64,000 bases of DNA from Daphnia carinata (lineage: Eukaryota). The notes beneath the pieces were generated by a model, which had not been told where the DNA came from, did not search any database, and worked only from the letters and a program-made list of their open reading frames with translations. The DNA is taken from the NCBI RefSeq assembly GCF_022539665.2, contig NC_081333.1, positions 496,001-560,000 of the forward strand, in the 5' to 3' direction. Position 1 is the stretch's first letter, and each line of letters begins with the position of its first letter. The translations under genes and the position numbers were made by a program. Below are positions 2,484 through 47,579 of this stretch, in pieces.

Positions 2484-3797
2484 TATGGCAATCCGTTTTA
2501 CCCAAAATAAAAATAAAAAATACTGGCCATTTTTTCTGTTTTACTGCTAATTTCGTTTTCGTGTTCCTTGTTAAGTTTTGAATCAGAATCATATATAGTT
2601 ATCTAGATTTAATGATATCATTTTTTAATAGGAAAAAATTTTAAGCCCGACAAAATCAGCCCGGCCTTCTGTTTTTTACGGTTAATTCAAAAATTAGAAG
2701 CCTAATATAAAAATATACCCCATTTTCGTGATCAGCGATCAATTTCGAATCGGAATAATGTATTTTAAATGAAATTTAGGATTTTAAGAAAATTGAAAAA
2801 GTGAGAAGGCTATAAGCCTTCTCACTTTTCCAATTTTGGCCAAATTTCAAATTTGGCTTAAAATACATGATTTCGATGTAGAATGGAATGCTGATCACGA
2901 ATATAAAGTTTTTTTTTTAATTGGCCTTATAGTTTTTGAATTAAACAAAAAAAAAACAGAAGGCCGGGCTTATATTGTCGGGCTTAACATTTTGTCCTAT
3001 TAACAAATAATATCATTAAATCTCGATAACTATACATAATTCCCATTCAAAATTAACAAGGAACACGAATATGGAATTTGTTTTTACGTAGAGTATGTAG
3101 TTTTGGAGTAATCTAAAATATAAAATTAGTGTGTGCGAATCGAAACCATTACTAGCGCGCCAGTACGCTACAGCGCTAGCATGACACATTAAACTTCTTT
3201 GATTATTCAAAAACCATGAACTCTACGTAAAAACAAATTTCATTTTCGTGTTCCTTGGTTAATCTTGAATCAGAATCATCTATAGTTATCTAGACTTAAT
3301 GCTATTATTTTTTAATAGGAAAAAATTTTAAGCCCGACAATATAAGCCCGGGCTTATTTTTTAACCTAGCTTTTACCGTTTTACGTTTTATTCAAAAACT
3401 ATGAGGCCCACTAGAAAACAACCCTCATATTCGGGATGCCCGTTCAATTCTGCATCGAAACCATGTATTTAAAGCAAAATCTAAAATTTTGCCAAACTTG
3501 AAAAAGTAAGAAGGCTATAGCCTTCTCACTTTTCCAATTTTCATCATATCCTAGATTTCATTAAAAATACATTATTCCGATTCGAAATTGATCGCTGATC
3601 ACGAAAATGGGGTAAATTTTTATATTAGGCTTTTACTTTGTTAATTTACCGTAAAAAACAAAAAGTCGGGCTTAAAATTTTTTTCGGTCAGTGTATATGT
3701 AGAGAATTAACTAGAAACGTGGCCGATAGATGGCGATAGCAGTAAAACAGAAAAGGCCGAAAATATTTTTTTTTTCTGCGTAAAACGGATTGCCATA
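2484..3797. mobile_element. Non-autonomous TIR (MITE/foldback-like) element with nested internal palindromes
   Basis: TATGGCAATCCGTTTTAC at 2484 and its reverse complement ending at 3797; subterminal TTTTCTGTTTTACTGCTA / TAGCAGTAAAACAGAAAA; no credible ORF; same termini recur at 39237-44492. Confidence 0.85.
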
Positions 3798-19998: not shown

Positions 19999-22900
19999 AT
20001 GCATGTCATTGTGGTGACGTTGCTGGTGAGTTGCGCGATCTCACCAGTTCTGGTGCAATCGGATGACATCATTATCGACGACGCGTCTCTACGGTCCTCC
20101 ATCTTAAATGATATACAAGCCTACAACGCATCTTGTTTCCCAAAGGACACCTGCCGTACTGATAAGGTCAGTTTGTTCAACTCACTTGATCTCGATCTGC
20201 TTCTTTCAAACATGCTGGATTTGGTCTAAGAGCGACGACCTGTCCATTTTTTTTTCATGGAACATCGATGGCCTCTCTTGAGGAAAAAGAAGTATGGCTA
20301 AGTTTATTTTAAATTCTTTCTGTAGGTGAGCCGTATTAGCGATTCCCCTGACTGGTCAAAGCGGAACTGCCTTTGCGATGATTCTTGCGCTCATTTCGGG
20401 GACTGTTGTCCGGATTCAAAGCGGTTTGAGCTCAACCAACAACGTTTAGCTGGTGCTCGTTTCAGCTGCCTACACCTGAGGCAATACAATTTCAACTGGA
20501 TTGTCAATAAATGCCCTAGAGATTGGAATGACCCAGAAGTAGCACTGGCCTGCGAAACTGAACCAGCCGAATGGCAAATTCATTTGGATCCCATTAGTCA
20601 CATGCCCGTGACGAGCCAAGTTTCTGGTATCACGTACAGAAACTTGAACTGCGCCATGTGCCACCAAGATGTGCCAGGCACTCGAGGAAACAATCATCCG
20701 TCTTCCCTTCGTTTTTGGTACGTGTGAAAATGATTAGTACACAATTAGCAGAATTAGCAAAACCGAAGTGAGTCGTACACAGATGGAGTTCATTTGGATA
20801 ACACGTGGTCGGCAGATGATGTAGTGAAACATGCCACAAGAGACATTGCTTTAAACACCCTTTTGTTTTCACAGGAATCCGAGATTAGAATGCAACTCGA
20901 TCTTGGCCGGAAGCACAATTCTTCAATCGATGACAAAGGATGATCTCGCCTCAAAGGTAAATTTTCCGCACTCATTCATTACTTTTCAAAACGATACGAC
21001 GTTGTTTCTTTTGCAGATTCAATGGGATAATGAACAAAAGATGTGGGGTCTTGTGGTCGACATCAACGGCAAAGGAGAACAATTTCATTCTTGCTTTGTT
21101 GATCCAGCCTTACCAGATGACCTACAGTCTTACTTACGACCATGCCAGCCTTCCGTGAACGACTGCCCTCCAGACTGGATGGATGACGACATTCGCAACA
21201 AGTGCTTGTCATACACGTCATTCGTCTATCGTCCGCAAGAAATCTACCGCAACATCCATTGCGCCTTTTGCAACAGTGCCCAGCTGCAAGAGTTGTCGTG
21301 CAATTCATCAGGCATCACCTTCCGCAAACTGCCCGATTCACGCGAATTTAATCCGTCCGCGTTCGCGCTCCTCTTCGATCTAAAGGACAACGACGGCAGT
21401 GGCATCGTAGGACAAGAAAAGAGTTGCGAAGATGGCCAACTCTACGATCCCTTTTCTCGAAAATGCCGTACAGTTTATTGTTCACAGCCTGGCACCGTCT
21501 ACAGAGAAGGACGTTGCCTACAAGCGCCCGGCGTAGCGCCAGCAACCACATCCATCGCCGATGGCAATCGACCGGCCACCGATGGGGATGCTATCGTCTT
21601 CCCCGAGCACCCTAACGTGGGAGAATCTAATGGTCAATACACAGATGGACGACCTGATGTATCGGTGACTCAGCTACCTGAGCTTCCGTCCACCGTTGTC
21701 GATTCATCGTCAACTGGGTCGGCAGTCACGGACAGCGAAGCTGTTCAACCAACGTTGACGAATTTCACTTTGATACATCCAGTGAATATGACCGACAAGA
21801 AGCAGATGTCGGCAGAAGGCAATTTCACTTCCTGTCCTAAATTTCTTCTTTCCGAAGACGAAGTACAATGGCTGGACAACGGCACCCTCTACGTTCCCTC
21901 CCATGGTAAGCCCTACGATGAGGGTGACTACGAGAAAGATAAAAATGGTGGCGTTTGGATTTGTGCCGAAGGATTAACCATGGTGTCCAAGTTCGATCCG
22001 GTTCTCGGATGGGTAACTGTAGCTGGATTGGGTCTGTCTGAAGTATGCCTAGCTCTACATTTGATTGCGTTCGTCATCAGCCCCGATCTGCGCAATTTGT
22101 CTGGACGCAATTTGGCGTCGTTGTCTTTAGCCCTTTTTGCTGCGTATGGCTCTTTCATTGCGGCACAATTCGTCCCCACTGGCGGCAACATTTGTATCGG
22201 AATTGCTTTATCAACCTTCTACTTCTTTCTGGCCGCCTTTTGGTGGACTTCAGTCCTTGCTTGGGATGTATGGCGCACAATTAGATTGGCTACTGTTCAG
22301 CTAAGGTGCTCGTCTTCCGGCCAACAGTGGGGGAAATTTATTTGTTATTCCATGTATGCCTGGCTGTTGCCCGCGTTAATCGTAGCCGCAGCCGTGGTTG
22401 TCGAGTACGTTGATACGGACATCCTTTCGTGGATGCCAACAGAATATCGCCCCTTCTTTGGTCGGAATGTCTGCTGGTTCGGCCAACGCAAGGCCATTCT
22501 GATTTATTTCGCAGCTCCGCTAGCCGTTATCCTGTCCATCAACCTTTTGCTTTTTATCAGTTCGGCTCACATGATCCGTAGCACGACCGCCAAGTCTCCC
22601 ACGTCCAGCAATCAGGCCAGTTCCCGTAAACAGCTTGGTTTATACGTCCGTCTTGCCCTTATCATGGGCCTCTCTTGGTTGGCTGGATTGATTGCTGGCG
22701 CTGCCGATTTTATGCCGTTATGGTACGTTTTCGTTGCTCTCTGCTCGCTCCAAGGCGTCTTCATTTTGTTGGCCTACACCTGCAATCCAAAGGTAGCTCG
22801 ATCCATCCGCAACAGGGTTTTGGTTTGTCGAAAAACCAATAGCCGACAATCCACTTACCGTACAGCTCTCGTTGGAGGCTTTAGAAGCCAAGACCTCAAA

Positions 22901-23017
22901 CGGCTGGGCAAGGGAGGCAAAGGCAAAGTCGAAGCCCGTGATTCGCACGATTCACAAGTTTCGCAGACGTCTCAAACTTCCCTGACGAAAACGACCTCGA
23001 ACACAACAACTCCGTGA
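19999..23017 (+). CDS. Family-B/Methuselah-like GPCR with N-terminal somatomedin-B-like and Cys-rich repeats
   Basis: Signal peptide MHVIVVTLLVSCAI; SMB-like NCLCDDSCAHFGDCCPD; two YRNxxCAxC motifs; seven hydrophobic segments with LRNLSGRNL, FFLAAFWW, CWF, LQGVFI; ~2-kb last exon. Confidence 0.85.
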
Positions 23018-36977: not shown

Positions 36978-39115
36978 ATGAGTAACATATACGTTCAAGA
37001 ACCCCCAACAAACGGAAAAGTTAGTGTTGTTTCCGAAAACATGACATCAGTAATTGAAGGTGATATTAAAGAATGTTTTATTCCCCTTTCAGGTTGTTCT
37101 AACAACTTCTTTGGGAGAAATTGAAATTGAACTATGGAGTAAAGAATGCCCTAAAGCTTGTAGAAATTTTGTCCAGCTCTGCCTTGAGGAATTCTTCAAT
37201 GGAACAATTTTTCATAGAGTAGTTCCTAATTTTATTGCTCAAGGAGGAGACCCTACTGGTAAGTTAGCAGTAGCTGTACATAATTTGGTTTCAAAAGTGA
37301 TATATTTTTATGAAAGGCACTGGTCATGGTGGTGAAAGCATATATGGAGAACCATTTAAAGTAACAAAACATTTTGTTTCTGTTATTTTAATTGTTAATA
37401 AAAAATTTTTTAATTTTCCTTTTTAGAACGAAGTTCATTCCCGTCTGCGATTTGTTAGAAGAGGCAGGGAACTTAAGTACTTTTGTTTGATCTTTGCAAA
37501 TGTTTCCTAACAATTATCATCAACAGGTCTAGTTGCTACTGCCAACACAGGAAATAATGACAATGAATCACAATTTTTTTTCACTTTGGGGGCTTGTCCT
37601 GAATTACAAAACAAACACACAATATTCGGGAGAGTTGGAGGAAACACTTTGTTTAACATGGTAAATTATCATTGTTGAAAGACAAAAAAAATTATAATGA
37701 ATCAACTTAGAAATGATTCATTGAATAAATTGTATTTCCCCAGATTAAATTCAATGATCTGGATATTGATAATGTAAGTATTAGTTCATATTTACTTATC
37801 AGACACATGACTTATGATTCAACTCTTACAGGAGGAAAGACCAAGGCATCCTCCTAAGATACTTAAAACAGAGGTTATTAACAACCCATTTCCTGACATA
37901 GAACCAAGAATCAGCCAAAAGCAGGTTAAGGGGCCAGAAGAAACCAAACCCAAAGTTAAAAAAACAAAGTTAGTGAACTAAGTAGATTTACCTTGCCAAA
38001 ATCATAGCATTCTTAACAATCTTTTCTTCATTCTGTAGAAATCTTAAACTGCTTTCCTTCGGAGATGAAGAGGAAGATGAAACTGATGCCCAGCCGGTTA
38101 AGACATTTAAAGGGAAATCCTCTCATGATCTAACAGATGATCCTAGGCTTAGTATCATTCCGGCAGTTAATATGGAGACTGGAATCGGAAAAAAGTAATA
38201 ATGTTTAACTTATTGCCGTGATTAAGGTTAATTATCTTCCTAACTCAATTATTTAGAATAAACTTTTTTTTTTTACAGAAGTGAACAGAAGCAAATAGAA
38301 TCGGAAGTTGAGAAAGTAGTTGTGCCCCAGAATGAACCTCAAGATTTTGCTGCAAATGCTGATGATGAGGTAGTCGACGAGAAGAAACAAGAAGCGCAAA
38401 ACAGATTGTAAGAAATTAAAAACATAAGTGTATGCTCACTGCAACTAAAAAAAACTTTAATTTAGAAAAAAAATCAAAGAACAGATAAAGGATTTGAAGA
38501 GAGAAATGAAAAATCCTCGTGAAGATACAGAAGAAGAATTAACGAAGAAGCAAAAACTTGATGGTGATCATGTTAAGGATGAAGAAGAGAATGAAATACT
38601 AAAGAATTTTCATGAGCAGCACAAGAAATACGCAGTAGTGAAAACGACGCGTCGGGGGAAGGGTAACCGATTCTCTATTGTTAGCGGAACCTCACATTTC
38701 CACTAATCTTACCATCACATGGTCTACCGTAGGTGCTGATCGAGAGGCGGAAACACTTGCTTACCTTAAAAAATTTCAGGAAAAGCTTAGCGAAACGCGA
38801 TTGAAGGAAACAAATGACAGCGTCGCCGACGAAGAATCGGATGACCACACTTGGTGAGAAAATTTCACTAGCCGCTAGGACAGCTGCAGTAATTAATATT
38901 GTAATTATTATTTTAATTTAATACTATATTTTTGCTGCAGGTTAAATCATACCTTAAAGTTCGAAGACAACAATCCTACGTTAGCCAGAGATGCCAACAC
39001 AAAAGGAGATGATTGGTTTGAGATTTCCGATCCTCGTAATCCCCTAACCAAGCGAAGAAGAGAGGAGTCCAAGAAGATTTTGAAACAGAAAGGATCTACT
39101 ACTAAAATGGTCTAA
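36978..39115 (+). CDS. CWC27: Spliceosome-associated cyclophilin CWC27
   Basis: MSNIYVQEPPTNGK; ELWSKECPKACRNFVQLCLE..FHRVVPNFIAQGGDPTG; SQFFFTLG..ELQNKHTIFG; KSSHDL; WLNHTLKFE..DWFEISDPRNPLTKRRRE; TAA 39113-39115. Confidence 0.96.
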
Positions 39116-39456
39116 ATTTTTGAATACAAAAACGTTACGTTTTCGCCTGTACTGAACGAATAGGTCATCTTCAAATATACGATCGTCATTTCGATATATT
39201 GACATTGCGTAAATAATAATACCACGAGCTGTCGAATATGGCAATCCGTTTTACCCAAAATTAAAACTAAAATTATTGGCCAGTTTTTCTGTTTTACTTC
39301 TACCGCCGAAAATAGTAAAACAGAAAAAAGGAAAATATATTTTTCTGTTTTACTGCTAACGCCATCTATAAGTCACATTTTATGGCAATCCGTTTTACCC
39401 AAAATAAAAAATACTATGGCAAATATGGCAATCCGTTTTGTATGGCAATCCGTTTT

Positions 39457-39460
<4 letters not shown>

Positions 39461-39501
<41 letters not shown>
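39461..39501 (+). repeat. Poly(A) tract mirrored by an interrupted poly(T) at ~44387-44421
   Basis: About 41 consecutive A directly inside the innermost left TIR. Confidence 0.9.
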
Positions 39502-39504
<3 letters not shown>

Positions 39505-39658
39505 CACTTTTTTCTCTTTTTTCTACCCGTAGCCATCTACCAGTCGGTTTCGTTATTATAGGCAATATTGTAAGCAATTTGAGTTAATTGTATCCCATTA
39601 GCAGTTAATTGAGTAGCGTGGCTGGAGAAAAACTCGTGGCTGGAGGAACAATTTAAAA

Positions 39659-41031
39659 ATGGATAAGATAATACAACAAAAGGATGGTAAGTATAAAGAT
39701 TATTATATTGGTTTTCAATTATTAATTATTGTTTATTAGATCAAATTATGAAGCTGCAGGCCCAATTATTGGAACAACACAAAATATTGGATAACAGCAA
39801 TGCTAAGGATGGTAAGGCCTAATACATAATGATTCTATTTATTTGCTTTTATTCATTTGTGTTTTGTAGCTCAAATTTTGAGTCTACAAGCTCAGCTAGG
39901 GGAAAAGAACAAATTGGAACGGAACCGTTTCCAAACAGTGAAGGAGGTTTTTCCAAACTCAAACCTAACTGAACGTGAGGATGAATTGGCATTAGGCCTA
40001 AACTTTTCAAATAAGAATTCAAAATAAGTATAGAATTTTAACAAACAATTATTTATTGTTTAGTTATTCAGTCTACCACCTGACAGTGTGTTAAAGTTAA
40101 ATTCTGTTAGTGGTGCACTAAAAGAATTGTTAGTAATAAGTCCATGCAGCGAAGGAAGTGAACAATTGTGGGACCGTATTTGGGCTGAAAATGGGTGTGG
40201 TACGGAAACCCAGAAATAGCATGAGTTCAACATAAAACATGAATTAGGTACTTTTCGGTTTTTTGTCTATCAAAAAGTATTTTTAATGCTATTATTTTGC
40301 ATTCACAGAATTTTAGTGGGGGATCAAGTCAAGTCTGGACGTGTTACAGGATGGAAGAGTGAGCCTACAGTTGAAAAACACTGAAAGTGCATTACCATTA
40401 AGGTATGAGGTAAAGTAATACAGTATGCAAATTGTCTAATGAGAAGTACCATCTTGTGTGAATGAATCCTGTATAACAGCAATCCTTTATAGTTCTGTCA
40501 CAGCTAGAAGCCTCAAATAATTCTGCTTCTCTTGCTAAAGAACAACTTGTCCTTTACGCTCAGAGTGTTGGTGAAGCTGGGTACTTAAATGGCACTAAAG
40601 ATGTTTCATTTCGTTGGCATTGCAGCGATGAACATCATACATGGACTTTTTAGGTATGAAAGAAATTTTCTTGAAAATTTTTTTAATTTATGACAAAGCA
40701 TTTCTCCTGCTTTTTGCCAACCATGTCTAATCTAAAAAAAAATTTATCCAATAGGAAAGGATTTTCAGCATCCTGGGAACACAACTATCAACAATGCAAC
40801 ATTCTAGGGGTGTTATTTTATCATTCAAGAGCCTTATACAATGATTTTCATCTACAATTTGTATGGCCTTTCCCAAGCTTCTGCCAGAAGTTGAATCTAT
40901 GAGTCATGTAAGTCACATGAGCAACAATTGAGATGCTTAATGGTGTTGTTTTTCTTTTCTCAGTGTAGGTTAATAGCAACATTGGATCTGAAAAAATTCT
41001 TGGTTGGGGCAAGACACTGAATAAATTGTAA
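39659..41031 (+). pseudogene. Left-arm copy of an unknown ~8-exon gene
   Basis: ATG GAT AAG ATA ATA CAA CAA AAG GAT G|gtaagt; GT-AG introns; exon-3 donor removed by a 16-nt deletion near 39997; TAG at 40217; further stops and frameshifts; last exon VNSNIGSEKILGWGKTLNKL*. Confidence 0.65.
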
Positions 41032-41768
41032 TGATTGGATGGATGACATGATATTTCTATATTTCTATACTTCATTCGGATTCCCGAGACGGTATTTGAT
41101 ATTTAAAAAATTGAAGTGCATATCTGGGCTCCCTTCCTTTCCGTAGCCCCGTTTCCCCTTGACTCGTAATAAGCCCGTAGGGGGTCATGCCCCTACTGTA
41201 CGGTATATATAAAAACAACATATACCGAGGTTTGGAGGGCTCTGGCCGGAAAGGGGACGTGGGGTGCCGCTTCGTCCGATGATGTGTTCACGGAGGGTGA
41301 CGTGGCTGCCCACAAATCCGAACTAAAGGTTAATCGCTCCTGTAAAAATGTTCCAAATCTTCAGCTCTTCTTCCGGCTTCTCTTAGCCAATCACCGGGTA
41401 ATCTCCCCGGTGGGTCAACAAGGCAGTGTCTCCCCCTGCCTGGGTTGACGGCAACTTTTGAAAGGGCTATTGTGCCTTTTTAAAGTTGCAAAAATAATTG
41501 TAATGTGCAGAGAATTGTCAATAAAATTTTTTTTATAAAATATTTTTTGCAAATTCGTTTCTTTCATTGTCTGTATTCACACGTTACACTTTTTATATTT
41601 AGCTTGCTTATTTCACCTTTATTGTTTCTGTCACCTTTGATGGTAAGCATTGTTTCCATTGGTTTACCGTTTATCTGTAAGTATTATTTATTACACTCTT
41701 TGAATTCTTCAACTTAGATTCAAGGAACAATCTGGATATTTTATGCAGTAATTTTGTATTTTGTTTTA

Positions 41769-41834
41769 CTCGTATGGGAACCGATCCCCAGACATTCAGC
41801 GTGCAACGCCGATGCTCTAACATTGAGCCACGAG
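41769..41834 (-). pseudogene. Degenerate tRNA-like unit (Ala-TGC-like)
   Basis: Reverse complement reads TGGCTCAATGTTAGAGC A TCGGC-GTTGCAC-GCTGA ATGTC TGGGGATCGGTTCCCA: D arm, 7-nt anticodon loop and T arm, but no full acceptor stem. Confidence 0.6.
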
Positions 41835-41934
41835 ATATATTTAAATTTTTTATTATCGCATATCATATGTTATCGTCTAGGATGTTTATGCAGTTTTTCA
41901 CAACTATATGTTTATCTTTCTATTGCTTCCATAA

Positions 41935-42000
41935 GGTTCTTAGCTCTGTGGTAGAGCTTTTATCTGCGATACCTGTTACCCTGGGTTCAAACCTGAGTAG
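41935..42000 (+). pseudogene. Degenerate tRNA-like unit at the palindrome axis
   Basis: A-box-like TAGCTCTGTGGTAGAGC and B-box-like GGTTCAAACC at tRNA spacing; anticodon arm decayed. Confidence 0.5.
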
Positions 42001-42107
42001 ATGTGTAAAAATGTAGAAGAGTATATTGCAGAATTGCATTTCAGTTTTATTCTAAGTGTAAATGCAAGTCCACAAGTGACTAGAAAAAAAAGCCAACAAA
42101 ATCATAT

Positions 42108-42170
42108 GATTCGTGGCTCATTGGTAGAGCATCGGCGAGGTATGCCGAACATCCAGGGTTCGATCCCTGG
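42108..42170 (+). pseudogene. Degenerate tRNA-like unit (mirror partner of 41769-41834)
   Basis: TGGCTCATTGGTAGAGC A TCGGC-GAGGTAT-GCCGA ACAT CCAGGG-TTCGAT-CCCTGG; good A and B boxes; acceptor stem unpaired. Confidence 0.65.
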
Positions 42171-42836
42171 ATAATAATAGAATGCTTACAGATAAACGAT
42201 AAACCAATGCCCGTCACCTTACCACCAAATGTGACAAAAACAAATAAATCAAAGCCAAAAAAAAAAAATTGATAAATGCAATATGTGAACAAAGCAAGCA
42301 AACACACACAATGAAAGAAACGAATTTTGCAAAAAATATTTTATAAAAAAAATTTTATTGACAATTCTCTGCACATTACAATTATTTTTGCAACTTTAAA
42401 AAGGCACAATAGCCCTTTCAAAAGTTGCCGTCAACCCAGGCAGGGGGAGACACTGCCTTGTTGACCCACCGGGGAGATTACCCGGTGATTGGCTAAGAGA
42501 AGCCGGAAGAAGAGCTGAAGATTTGGAACATTTTTACAGGAGCGATTAACCTTTAGTTCGGATTTGTGGGCAGCCACGTCACCCTCCGTGAACACATCAT
42601 CGGACGAAGCGGCACCCCACGTCCCCTTTCCGGCCAGAGCCCTCCAAACCTCGGTATATGTTGTTTTTATATATACCGTACAGTAAGGGCATGACCCCCT
42701 ACGGGCTTATTACGAGTCAAGGGGAAACGGGGCTTCAGAAAAGAAGGGAGCCCAGATATGCACTTCAATTTTTTAAATATCAAATACCGTCTGGGGAATC
42801 CGAATTAAGTATAGCAATGTCATGTCATCCATCCAA

Positions 42837-44235
42837 TCAATACAATTTATTCAGTGTCTTGCCCCAACCAAGAATTTTTTCAGATCCAAATGTTACTATT
42901 AACCTATATTGAGAAAAGAAAAAGAACACAGTTAAACATATCAACTGTTGATCATGTAACTTACATGACTCATAGATTCAACTTCTGGTGGAAGCTTGGG
43001 GAAGGACATACAAATTGCAGATTAACATCATTGTATAAGGCTCTTGAATGATAAACTAGCACCTGTACAATGTTGCATTGTAGATAGTTGTGTTCCCAGT
43101 ACATGAAAATCCTTTCCTATTGGATAAAATTTTTTTTGGTAGATTAGACCTGGTTGGCAAAAAGGAGGAGAAATTCTTCGTCATAAATTCAAAATTATTT
43201 GAAGAAAAATCCTTTCATACCTAAAGAGTCCATGTATGATGTTCATCTCTGCAATGGCAGCAAAATTAAAACATCTTTAGGGCCATTTAAGTACCCAGTT
43301 TCCCCAACACTCTGAACGTAAAGGACAAGTTGTTCTTTAGACAGAGAAGCAGAATTATTTTCTGAGGTTTCTAGCTGTGACAGAACTATAAAGGATTGCT
43401 GTTGTACTGGACTTATTAACACAAAATGGTACTTCTCATTAGACAATGTGCATTCTCTATTACTTTACCTCATACCTTAATGGTAATGCACTTTCAGTGT
43501 TTTTCAACTGTAGGCTCACTCTTCCATCCTGTAACACTTCCAGACTTGATTTGATCCCCCATTAAATTCTGTGAATGCAAAATAATAGCATTAAAAATAC
43601 TTTTTCAATAGACATAAAACCGAAAAGTACCTAATCCATGTTTCTTGTTGAACTCGTGCTATTTCTTGGTTTCCGTACCACACCCATTTTCGGCCCAAAT
43701 ACGGTCCCACAATTGTTCACTTCCTTCACTGCATGGGCTTATTACTAACGATTCTTTTTGTGCAGCACTAACAGAATTTAAATTTAACACACTGTCAGGT
43801 GGTAGACTGAATAACTAAACAATAAATAATTGTTTGTTAAAATTCTATACTTATTTTGAATTCTTATTTGAAAAGTTTAGGTACCTGACTGTGTTCGCCT
43901 AATGCCAATTCATCCTCATGTTCAGTTAGGTTTGAGTTTGGAAAAACCTCCTTCACTGTTTGGAAACTGTTCCGTTCCAATTTGTTCTTTTCCCCTAGCT
44001 GAGCTTGTAGACTCAAACTTTGAGCTACAAAACACAAATGAATAAAAGCAAATAAATAGAATCATTATGTATTAGGCCTTACCATCCTTAGCTTTTCTGT
44101 TATCTAATATTTTGTGCTGTTGCAATAATTGAGCCTGCAGGTCCATAATTTGATCTAATAAACAATAATTAATAATTCAAAACAAATATAATAATGTTTA
44201 GACTTACCATCCTTTTGTTGTATTATCTTATCCAT
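42837..44235 (-). pseudogene. Right-arm copy of the same unknown gene; first four exons splice into an open ~131-aa ORF
   Basis: ATG 44233-44235: MDKIIQQKD|DQIMDLQAQLLQQHKILDNRKAKD|AQSLSLQAQLGEKNKLE..ALGEHSQ|LFSLPPDSVL..GTETKK* (TAG 43659-43661); later exons carry stops. Confidence 0.65.
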
Positions 44236-44590
44236 TTTTCAATTGTTCCTCCAGCCACGCGTTATTCTCCATCCACGCTACTGAACTAACTGCGAATGGC
44301 ATCCAATGGACTGAAATTGCCTACGCCAGTAATAATGAGTCTGAGCGGTAGATGGCTACGTGTCGGAAAAAAAGAAAAAAGTGCGATTTTTTTTTTTTTC
44401 CGCCTTTTTTTTTTTTTTTTTATGTAAAACGGATTGCCATAATATTGCCATAGTATTTTTTATTTTTATTTTGAGTAAAACGGATTGCCATAAAATGTGA
44501 CTAATAGATGGCGTTAGCAGTAAAACAGAAAAATATATTTGCCTTTTTTCTGTTTTACTATTTTCGCCATCTACCGGTGACGTTTTTAAA

Positions 44591-45090
44591 TAGCCTTCTT
44601 ACTTTTTAATTTTTGGCCAAATTTTAGATTTCGCTTTAAATATATGGTTTCGATGCAGAATTGAATGGGCATTACGAATATGAGGATTGTTTTCTCGTGG
44701 GACTCATAGTTTTTGAATAAAACGTAAAAAACGGTGAAGTGTGGTTAAAAAAATAAGCCCGACTTTATCTTTCGGGCTTAAAAATCTTTCCTGTTAAAAT
44801 ATAAGATCATTAAATCTAGAAAACTATAGATGCTTCTGATTCAAAATTAACCAAGGAACACGAAAATAAAATTTGTTTTTACGTAGAGTTTATAGTTTTG
44901 GAGTAATCTAAAATATAAAATTAGTGTCTGCGCATCGAAACCATTACTTGCGCGCCAGTACGCTACAGCGTTAGCGTGACACATCAAACTTCTTTGATTA
45001 TTCAAAAACCATTTTGAATTTAAGGATCCTCCTACTACCAGAATATTTGTACTGCATCGCGCTAGCGCTGGATCGTACTGGCGCGCTAGC
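44591..45090. repeat. Internal module of the 2484-3797 element family abutting the foldback
   Basis: 44591-45012 aligns directly with ~2813-3216 (AGCCTTCT..GGAACACGAA..TTTTTACGTAGAG..GCGCGCCAGTACGCTACAGCG..GATTATTCAAAAACCAT); 45048-45090 is an inverted copy of the GCGCGCCAGTACG core. Confidence 0.85.
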
Positions 45091-47579
45091 GTTTCGTCAA
45101 CTATTCGCTGTATTTCAGAAACGATTAACCTAATGAAAAAAAATTACAATTTTCCCGGAATTAGCATTCAATTTTGAGCAGCCCGACTGATAAATAAGCC
45201 CGACTTTCGGCTGCATCGTGCTCCGAAAGTCGTTCATTCTGTCAGCAGAGCTGAGACTAGGTGAATACCATCACAGCAGGAGTTCGGATTTTATACCTCC
45301 TACGCCTCGCTTTATATTTAAAAGCTGAAAAAATGTGAGAAAGAGGAAATGAAAGCAAAAAGTTTTGACAATGTGGGTTTAACCAAACTTTTTGCCAAAA
45401 TAAATTATTTGCTGGACGTTTAAATTGAAAACTTGTAAAGATAACGAAGGAAAATGGTAGACTAAAGAAAGTTACATTATTTAACATAGAACATTACCTA
45501 CGTATTTTAATCCAGTATATTTTTACTTAACCATAATTGCAAGCGTAAATTCATTGTTCTGCTCCTGGTGTGGGTAGATGACATACTAACAACATTAGCT
45601 GCCAATTTACGATCCAATAGGGTAATAAAAACTAAAATTAATACGTAAGGGATCAGAAAAGAAAGCTTTTTGAACAGTGCACTGAGGCCTTAGCATTAAG
45701 CCGAAGTTCAGAGAAAATAGGCTTTCAAATGCGACAGGAATACGTGAGAGACAAAGAGGAAAGATAGTATACGCCTTTATTGCCGGAGATGATTCGATTA
45801 TTCACACGAGATTGATCCCTGAAATAAGGTGGGACACATTTGTTTTTTGTTGTTGACGCTTCCAGTCTTTAGCACTTATGTGGTGCTAATCAGGTTAACT
45901 ACAACAAATCCATATGTAAAAGTGAGCGGCATCACTTCGGTTCCCCACGTATAAAAGTGAATCGGGATACACTGGCATACCGCAGTCAGGTATCCGATAG
46001 CCAGCACCGCATTTGCATTCTCGTCCGTCTCCTTCTTCCCGAATAACTCCATGATGCGCCCCAGTTTAATGATCGTTATGGTCTGTTTCGTCTTCATTTT
46101 TACATTCTGGGGACAATTAGTCGAGGGCACTCGCAAGCTGCCGTTCAACGGTAGCATTTTCGGAAAACGTAGCAATCCAGGTATGTTATTATGTTTATCG
46201 TTACATTTATGTGATAATAAATAACTTTTAAAGCTTCATATATGATTACATAATATTTCAGATTAAGTGTATATAGTCTACGCATATAGTCTGCAAATTT
46301 GATTGTTGTTTTTGTGGCCTTTGCTGCAAATATTTTTGCACTCTGTTTGGCTCTGTTGGACTGGCAACTTCACCCAATGTTGCAATTATTTGCAGCTAAC
46401 ATTCCAACGATGATTTCTGTCAATCATGCAGGCACAGGCAAGCACGCTGCATCACCAAATTTCCAGCATCTTTGCGACGCGGCTATGAACGCGTGCAGTG
46501 ACTGGCTACCTATTGGCTCCAAATAGCGCCGGGACGATACAGCTCTTTTTCATCAATCAAACGATACGCCGTACATAAAATAGTAACTGTTTTACCCTCA
46601 TGAAGTTCCTCTTTAAAGATGGATGTACACTAATTAATAGGACGTGAATAAACATATAGTTCAATGTCCTTTTTTCTCCAAATCACTCGCTTATTCGTCG
46701 CTTGAATTAGCCTGATAAAATTTCATTGAGCTAGTCAAATTGATCGTTTATTTTTTTGCCACGAAAATGGGTTTAACTTTTAATAAGTGTATGCATAATT
46801 GCGTATAATATTATGGTATGTAAAAACAGATGAAATAAAAACCAAAGTTAGACGTACGTGTGCTTGAGGCTGCTAATTAAATCAATGACAGAAAACATAT
46901 CGCGATCTGTTATACAACTAATGCGGCGGTACAATGCAAGGAAGATTAGCAAACGAAAGAATCAGCTCAGATGGGCATTCAGTTATTAATGCTAAAAAAC
47001 ATTTTGTTCACTAATAGAGAAGTATATCGTAGATATATCTAGTTAAGTATGGTTATCGTATGAACAGCTCACACAAAAGAGAAGACAAACTTGCATTTAA
47101 TCGCATGTTAGTAGTATACTGACTGTTGCATGACATCCAACTTACAGTTTTTGGAGTTGCTAATGTTTGCCGTTATTTTTTTCCCAGAAGCTCAATTTGA
47201 CAAAGCGTAATCATTTCCAACCATACCCATTATAAACCGTTAGACACGTTCACTAACATATTTCAATAGATGTATTAGTTTGAAAATTGGGAAGTCCATA
47301 GTAGTTCACTATTATTAGGAATGCATAATCGGATTAATTGCCAGAGAGCAGTCACAATTACTGAAGCTGTAAGTTGGTAAACTGCTTACAAAGAACGCGA
47401 AAGATGTTGCTACTTTTTTTATTGTCTTGTCTTTTATTGTCTTTTTTTGTTTATTTTTTTTCTGTAATAAGATCGAGAATAAGAATCAAATAATAAGATA
47501 AGCGGCTCACTAGATGGTCACGCGTATAAAACGAAAACGCCGTGAGAAGATGGACTGTGTCTGATCAATAGGTACGGGT

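What the first reader, a model, noticed from the sequence alone, without database searches (positions are those of the whole stretch)
42837..44235. Hidden multi-exon gene of unknown family in both arms, decaying asymmetrically
Invisible in the ORF track because exons are short. Exons 2 and 3 both open with a repeated KD[D/A]Q..LQAQL coiled-coil-like motif at phase-1 junctions. The right arm keeps a spliceable ~131-aa ORF, while the left arm lost the exon-3 donor (deleted GAACACAGTCAGGTAC near 39997). Both share the exon-4 TAG, which therefore predates the duplication or was copied by conversion. Downstream exons can be threaded as ..LQDGRVSLQLKNTESALPLRYE|QSFIVLSQLE..GETGYLNGPKD..PKLPPEVESMSH|VNSNIGSEKILGWGKTLNKL, suggesting a longer ancestor (inference).
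Basis: partly seen in the sequence, partly recalled or inferred. Interest (0 to 1): 0.7.

Follow-up and report, generated by a model that had tools for sequence, protein, structure and literature searches.

The report
Transposon-built chimeric gene in Daphnia palindrome
Two broken, mirror-image copies of a small water-flea gene run into a decayed piece of the RNA polymerase III gene, and the gene's front end likely comes from a DNA transposon, which makes it a likely new example of a known process (transposons building genes from spare parts) rather than the remnant of a lost long gene.

Summary
The hidden gene is real. Exons 1-4 plus two codons of exon 5 of the right arm match a 143-aa Daphnia carinata RefSeq model at 128 of 143 residues without gaps. 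Intact relatives lie on at least three scaffolds. The shared exon-4 TAG is Trp132 in 3 of 3 intact sequences. Both arms are damaged: right 131 aa, left 85 aa after loss of the exon-3 donor.

The 'longer ancestor' is wrong. The intact gene stops at the start of exon 5.

Exon 4 is homologous to the leader of a D. magna protein whose remainder resembles the helix-turn-helix of integrase-core (PF24764) transposases. The arms end in TATGG..CCATA repeats of IS3EU type, shared with a 1.3-kb MITE in the window that has a 5/6 target duplication. The palindrome itself has no target duplication and no transposase core.

Best reading: a non-autonomous IS3EU/GingerRoot-like Pack-TIR whose own first exons were fused to captured host DNA, present here as an inverted pair partly homogenised by conversion. 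A new member of a known kind; modest interest.

The parts
39237..39543 (+). Left cluster of IS3EU-type terminal repeats (TATGG starts at 39237, 39381, 39415, 39424, 39441, plus subterminal motifs in both orientations)
   Evidence: 89% identical over 66 nt to the left end of the MITE at 2484
39307..41837 (+). Left arm of the palindrome
39659..40316 (+). Left gene copy: exons 39659-39686, 39740-39811, 39870-~39997 (donor deleted), 40064-40247, 40309-; premature TAG 40217-40219; native stop 40314-40316; 85 aa if intron 3 is kept
40274..40714 (+). Decayed genomic fragment of RPC1/POLR3A (two exon pieces and parts of three introns), left arm; clear to about 40660
40755..41030 (+).
41140..41553 (.). 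GC-richer block nearly identical between arms (3 mismatches in 410 nt against 42330-42739)
41766..42169 (.). Centre: tRNA-like heads at the inner arm ends (41766-41837 minus, 42114-42169 plus; below the Rfam cut-off) around a 267-nt spacer 41838-42104
42105..44566 (-). Right arm of the palindrome
42841..43116 (-).
43214..43615 (-). Decayed RPC1 genomic fragment, right arm
43631..43814 (-). Exon 4: homologous to the leader of D. magna XP_045026876.1 (HTH-bearing, transposase-like); premature TAG 43661-43659
43885..44235 (-). Exons 1-3 (44235-44208, 44154-44083, 44024-43885): predicted long helix; exon 2 is a tandem duplicate; exon 3 is shared with D. magna KAK4007650.1 and XP_045032190.1
44345..44590 (-). 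Right cluster of terminal repeats (CCATA ends at 44441, 44452, 44492, plus subterminal motifs)
44590..45012 (+). Interior sequence of the same MITE family (81-87% identical to 2815-3518); no matching terminus found up to 50000
2484..3797 (.). 1314-bp MITE with the same TATGG..CCATA termini, 66-nt TIRs and 6-nt flanks matching at 5 of 6

Best explanation
Each arm carries a broken copy of a 143-aa multi-copy Daphnia gene followed by a decayed genomic piece of RPC1, and the unit is likely a non-autonomous IS3EU/GingerRoot-like DNA transposon whose own first exons were likely fused to this captured host DNA. Steps: (1) shown: the gene, its junctions, its intact paralogues on several scaffolds, and the RPC1 fragment with introns. 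(2) Shown: TATGG..CCATA repeats flank the arms and are shared with a MITE. (3) Inferred: exon 4 is the 5' part of a transposase gene cut off in the first helix of its HTH, and exons 1-3 are a helical leader of an element ORF; the catalytic core was replaced by RPC1 DNA through template switching, so an RPC1 intron now serves as intron 4 and RPC1 exon DNA supplies the stop and 3' UTR. (4) Inferred: a transposase acting in trans spread the unit to other chromosomes. (5) Inferred: at this locus two copies of different sub-lineages came to lie tail to tail, and patchy gene conversion copied the nonsense codon and other changes between them. The protein has no catalytic domain and is most likely a passenger.
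For: RefSeq match 128 of 143, no gaps; cluster of 3 sequences (5 accessions) plus a 102-aa relative, on contigs of four different lengths. RPC1: frameshift-aware score 214 against 25-34 in 12 shuffles; intron read-through also matches; the only 2 PDB hits of the left-arm frame among 177,635 sequences are RPC1 (E 0.15 and 0.19); the Logan relative is RPC1 at E 2e-22. Exon 4 against XP_045026876.1: 56% over 54 aa, score 147 against a maximum of 49 in 1000 shuffles; that protein's residues 43-164 resemble HTH regions of PF24764 integrase-core proteins (feature scores 0.96 and 0.92, TM up to 0.63), and residues 43-53 lie inside the part shared with exon 4. IS3EU ends are TAYGG..CCRTA with 6-bp TSDs (PMC12730594); GingerRoot captures gene fragments with introns and often loses the DDE region (PMC6839031 section 17); IS3EU is listed for D. 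pulex (PMC8594854). The arms sort with different paralogues at residues 14, 21, 36 and 99, and divergence is patchy, 0.7% to 19%.
Against: No target duplication at any TATGG/CCATA pair of the palindrome; the flanks are inverted or unrelated. No transposase core in the window, and no full-length transposase bearing the exon-4 leader was found (none of 754 candidates). XP_045026876.1 has no Pfam hit, its single-sequence model is poor (pLDDT 41), and it is itself a predicted model that could be a chimera. The link of PF24764 to IS3EU is recalled, not shown by a call. The exon-3 homologues continue into a different, ubiquitin-like-looking domain (Atlas scores under 0.8) whose element origin is untested. 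The DNA around the intact paralogues could not be seen. The IS3EU share listed for D. magna is 0.00%.
Confidence: 0.65

Rival explanations
1. The 143-aa gene is a lineage-specific host gene family that the TIR element merely carries or sits beside; the D. magna HTH model is a separate chimera, so exon 4 is not of transposase origin.
For: Intact ORFs at several loci, 96.5% identical; no Pfam transposase hit for the gene or for XP_045026876.1; exon-3 homologues lead into a different domain.
Against: Intron 4, the stop codon and the downstream DNA come from a broken RPC1 copy, so the gene is a recent chimera. The shared stretch reaches into the HTH-aligned residues. Copies are dispersed, and here the gene starts about 220 nt from a TATGG terminus in both arms.
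Confidence: 0.2
2. The whole 5.3-kb palindrome is a foldback-type element that moves as one unit, with a left-type and a right-type arm; the RefSeq paralogues are arms of other copies. (This differs from the best explanation only in step 5.)
For: The arms resemble different paralogues (left: the 143-aa group; right: the 102-aa model, 100 of 102); both outer ends carry outward-facing TATGG termini.
Against: No TSD at any symmetric pair of termini; the symmetry runs 74 nt past the outermost paired termini into subterminal fragments, and the right flank continues as MITE interior. This looks like a local rearrangement.
Confidence: 0.3
3. One reading: one longer (about 300-aa) ancestral gene with eight coding exons that decayed in both arms.
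For: AG/GT pairs can be drawn around exons 5-8 with Daphnia-sized introns.
Against: Intact relatives stop at codon 143; exons 5-6 are off-frame RPC1 and intron sequence; threading needs further shared stops and frameshifts; no homologue for exons 7-8.
Confidence: 0.02

Closest known systems
IS3EU/GingerRoot DNA transposons, gene-fragment-carrying GingerRoots (PMC6839031, PMC10045372, PMC12730594)
   Same: TATGG..CCATA termini; captured host gene fragment with exons and introns; no DDE region; dispersed copies.
   Different: No TSD at this locus; about 2.5-kb inverted arms instead of 100-150-bp TIRs; the capture is spliced to an upstream ORF to give a multi-copy 143-aa reading frame; no alpha-kinase or TET ORF as in fungal IS3EU.
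Animal Pack-TIRs, e.g. Drosophila Ssk-FB4 (PMC8277862)
   Same: TIR element holding captured host DNA, chimeric gene structure, several genomic copies.
   Different: Here nearly all coding sequence is not from the captured gene: RPC1 gives intron, stop and UTR. There is no evidence of translation or selection, unlike Ssk-FB4.
RefSeq D. carinata LOC130695125 / LOC130694400 / LOC130691170 / LOC130695855 (uncharacterized)
   Same: Same gene family: 124-128 of 143 and 100 of 102 identical residues, same junctions.
   Different: The window's copies carry a premature stop (both arms), a lost donor (left) and a lost native stop (right).

Membership tests
IS3EU/GingerRoot | Termini TAYGG..CCRTA | tested here: met
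   TATGG starts at 39237-39441 and CCATA ends at 44441-44492; same at MITE 2484/3797 (definition from PMC12730594)
IS3EU/GingerRoot | 6-bp TSD around the palindrome | tested here: not met
   Flanks of every TATGG/CCATA pair are inverted or unrelated; no matching right terminus for 39237 up to 50000
IS3EU/GingerRoot | 6-bp TSD around the same-TIR MITE (2484-3797) | tested here: inconclusive
   5 of 6 match, chance about 0.006, one element only
IS3EU/GingerRoot | TIRs longer than 30 bp | tested here: met
   MITE TIRs 66 nt at 80%; terminal repeats mirrored in the arms
IS3EU/GingerRoot | Integrase-like DDE transposase in the element | tested here: not met
   No Pfam hit in the arm and centre frames scanned; only a leader homologous to an HTH-bearing D. 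magna model. Expected for a non-autonomous copy.
IS3EU/GingerRoot | An autonomous partner with the same TIRs in the genome | not testable with these tools
   No genome is held for this window; the 14 TIR-pattern hits in viral and metagenome contigs were not related elements
Pack-TIR | Host gene fragment captured as DNA (exons and introns) inside TIR-type ends | tested here: met
   RPC1 exon and intron sequence at 40274-40714 and 43615-43214
Pack-TIR | Other copies with the same structure and distinct TSDs | not testable with these tools
HECT E3 ligase / alpha-kinase accessory ORF | Catalytic domain in the downstream exons | tested here: not met
   No Pfam HECT or alpha-kinase hit; exons 5-6 are RPC1

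The most novel reading that the evidence does not exclude
A young Daphnia gene family was born when an IS3EU-like element fused the helical leader of its own transposase gene to a captured RPC1 intron and exon. The truncated 143-aa product is kept because it binds the full-length transposase and damps it, while tail-to-tail pairs like this one yield hairpin RNA that silences the family: a self-made two-layer brake.
Probability: 0.08. Interest if true: 0.65.

Novelty: new member of a known kind. Interest (0 to 1): 0.3.

Why it matters
It resolves an 'uncharacterized' multi-copy RefSeq gene of Daphnia carinata as a likely transposon-made chimera. It also gives an arthropod example of gene capture by an IS3EU/GingerRoot-like element; in the passages read, such capture was described for a clubmoss and for fungi. 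If the intact copies are translated and constrained, this is a traceable case of new-gene birth from element exons plus a host intron. If not, these models are transposon passengers that should be flagged in annotation.

Tried and rejected
No genome is held for the window.

HECT idea (by eye, exon 7): no Pfam hit, dropped. Alpha-kinase idea: no hit.

Longer relatives of KAK4007650.1 and of XP_045026876.1: none among 2215 and 754 candidates (weak evidence). The exon-3 pattern in metagenome contigs gave 321 pattern matches, none confirmed. The TIR pattern gave 2 viral and 12 metagenome loci, none similar to the window beyond 22-36 nt.

Selection: arm-to-arm pN/pS in exons 1-4 is 0.48 (one-sided p 0.055), but the wrong-frame downstream control gives 0.58, so no selection is claimed.

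Structure: the 143-aa model is one long helix (residues 3-60, pLDDT above 85 for the first 50) plus a low-confidence rest; Foldseek found nothing at E 0.001 or below. The XP_045026876.1 model was too poor to search; PDB sequence search gave nothing for it.

Continuation of RPC1 into exons 7-8 is not supported (296 and 90 of 300 shuffles reached the observed score). Pfam scan of the six frames of 41040-42352: no hits. ARAGORN: 0 tRNA genes. Earlier findings: five look-ups, nothing.

Paper searches: IS3EU+HECT 0 papers; IS3EU+ubiquitin 2, PF24764 1, Daphnia carinata+TE+genome 6, none relevant by listing; the IS3EU second-ORF search returned only off-topic rows.

Full report
Setting. The window is an animal genome with short introns and 32-50% GC; flanking exons hit cyclophilin, Rad21, CRAL-TRIO, 7tm_2 and AMPK-CBM families (6 of 8 pieces with a clear family). 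Close relatives of the gene are labelled Daphnia carinata, so the window is that species or a near relative (inference). No genome is held.

Anatomy. 39307-41693 and 44566-42172 are inverted copies, 89.6% identical over 2436 columns. The symmetry continues to tRNA-like heads at 41766-41837 and 42114-42169 (Rfam 23 and 28 bits, cut-off 29), around a 267-nt spacer. Indels and 10% divergence rule out an assembly duplicate. Divergence is patchy: 3 of 410 in 42330-42739, 3 of 252 across intron 2 to intron 3, 0-17% in the other segments and 19% at the inner ends. The segments for the Fisher tests were chosen after looking, so those p-values are descriptive only.

The gene is real. The right-arm model has GT..AG introns of 53-70 nt and stops after 131 codons. 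A phmmer search of a left-arm read-through frame against 1.84 billion representatives gave 7 hits at E 0.001 or below. Its cluster holds 3 sequences under 5 accessions; a 102-aa relative matches at 100 of 102; the four lie on contigs of four different lengths. These are RefSeq predicted models; whether RNA supports them could not be seen. The shared TAG is Trp132 in all three 143-aa sequences. The native stop survives in the left arm (40314-40316) and is lost by a 1-nt deletion in the right arm. The left arm lacks the exon-3 donor and would give 85 aa. Exon 2 arose by tandem duplication of a unit spanning an exon end, an intron and an exon start (69 of 103 columns). AlphaFold gives one long helix for residues 3-60 and low confidence beyond; Foldseek finds nothing.

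No longer ancestor. The third hit is an unnamed Logan protein that reads a genomic RNA-polymerase gene through its introns (PF04998, E 1.5e-21); its cluster mate is closest to RPC1 of Pol III (E 2e-22, against 7e-14 for Pol II). A frameshift-aware alignment covers 40274-40714 (score 214, 74 of 157 columns) and 43615-43214 (176); 12 shuffles score 25-34. The translated intron matches too (0 of 300 shuffles in each arm), so the capture was of DNA, not cDNA. Independently, the left-arm frame finds only two PDB sequences, both RPC1, weakly (E 0.15 and 0.19). Exons 7-8 stay unassigned; an AATAAA in exon 8 of both arms suggests a 3' end there (inference).

Where the coding exons come from. Exon 3 matches the N-termini of D. 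magna KAK4007650.1 and XP_045032190.1 (65-67% over 48 aa). Those proteins continue into a domain that the Atlas places weakly near ubiquitin-like folds and one HECT-rich cluster (scores under 0.8; a lead only). The end of exon 3 and exon 4 match residues 7-60 of D. magna XP_045026876.1 (56% over 54 aa; 147 against a maximum of 49 in 1000 shuffles). That protein's residues 43-164 resemble HTH regions of eukaryotic proteins that carry PF24764 integrase cores (feature scores 0.96, 0.92; several structure rows are PF24764 clusters). The shared stretch thus ends in the first helix of the HTH. That PF24764 proteins are IS3EU/GingerRoot transposases is my recollection; a paper search for the accession gave one unrelated listing. 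Against: no Pfam hit for XP_045026876.1, no longer relative found, and it is a predicted model.

The ends. TATGG-starting repeats cluster at 39237-39441 and mirror at 44441-44492; the same termini bound a 1314-bp MITE at 2484-3797 whose 6-nt flanks match at 5 of 6 (chance 0.006). PMC12730594 (passages) gives IS3EU ends as TAYGG..CCRTA with 6-bp TSDs. PMC10045372 (passages and a supplement search) unites IS3EU and GingerRoot; none of the 14 IS3EU entry names displayed from its alignment looked like a Daphnia entry (30 of 34 places shown). PMC6839031 (passages and section 17) reports 22 of 77 GingerRoots with captured fragments containing introns, mostly without DDE. PMC8594854 (one table passage) lists IS3EU at 0.05% in D. 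pulex and 0.00% in D. magna. PMC8277862 (passages) describes animal Pack-TIRs and template-switch capture. PMC3520738 (passages) added nothing. For the palindrome no TSD was found; symmetry extends past the paired termini, and the right flank continues as MITE interior with no terminus up to 50000. So 'works like a Pack-GingerRoot' is well supported, while membership as an intact IS3EU element is not met at this locus.

How the pair arose. The arms differ at 14 of 139 comparable codons. At residues 14, 21 and 36 the left arm agrees with all three 143-aa sequences and the right arm with the 102-aa one; residue 99 sorts the same way with one of the three. Yet both arms share seven states absent from the three intact sequences, the TAG included. 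Two sub-lineage copies joined tail to tail, followed by conversion, explains this best; a mobile two-armed foldback is the rival. Arm-to-arm pN/pS (0.48) is not distinct from a wrong-frame control (0.58), so selection is not shown.

Verdict. A real, partly annotated gene, broken in both arms; a captured RPC1 fragment (shown); origin from an IS3EU/GingerRoot-like element (likely, 0.65). New member of a known kind, interest 0.3. The paper searches run here showed no description of this family, but Repbase and most subscription journals were not searchable.

Noticed in passing
window 2484-3797: 1314-bp MITE with the same TATGG..CCATA TIRs; its interior is built of nested direct and inverted repeats (2658-3672 is itself about 80% palindromic), so this family seems prone to fold-back rearrangements.
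   Followed up: partly
window 41766-41837, 41932-41993, 42114-42169: Three tRNA-like heads at the palindrome centre (two weak Rfam tRNA matches, a third by local alignment only); possibly SINE relics that seeded the tail-to-tail junction.
   Followed up: partly
window 41140-41553 / 42330-42739: Block 99% identical between arms, GC-richer, with a TATA-like run near 41205 and a CCAAT near 41388; no Pfam or Rfam match; could be a promoter or a recent conversion tract.
   Followed up: partly
window 37054-39115: Cyclophilin-domain gene (PF00160; looks like CWC27, name recalled) appears to end about 120 nt before the first TATGG at 39237, so the element may sit in or next to its 3' UTR.
   Followed up: partly
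window 44590-45130: MITE interior without a right terminus directly outside the right arm, ending near a short GC-rich palindrome at about 45050-45095.
   Followed up: partly
P0005 / P0017 (D. magna KAK4007650.1, XP_045032190.1): The exon-3 leader is also used by D. magna genes with a ubiquitin-like-looking domain; if these are the second ORF of the element, both element ORFs might start with exons lying in long inverted repeats.
   Followed up: partly
window 20855-23017: 720-aa single open frame with a secretin-family 7TM domain (PF00002), in the GC-richest part of the window.
   Followed up: no
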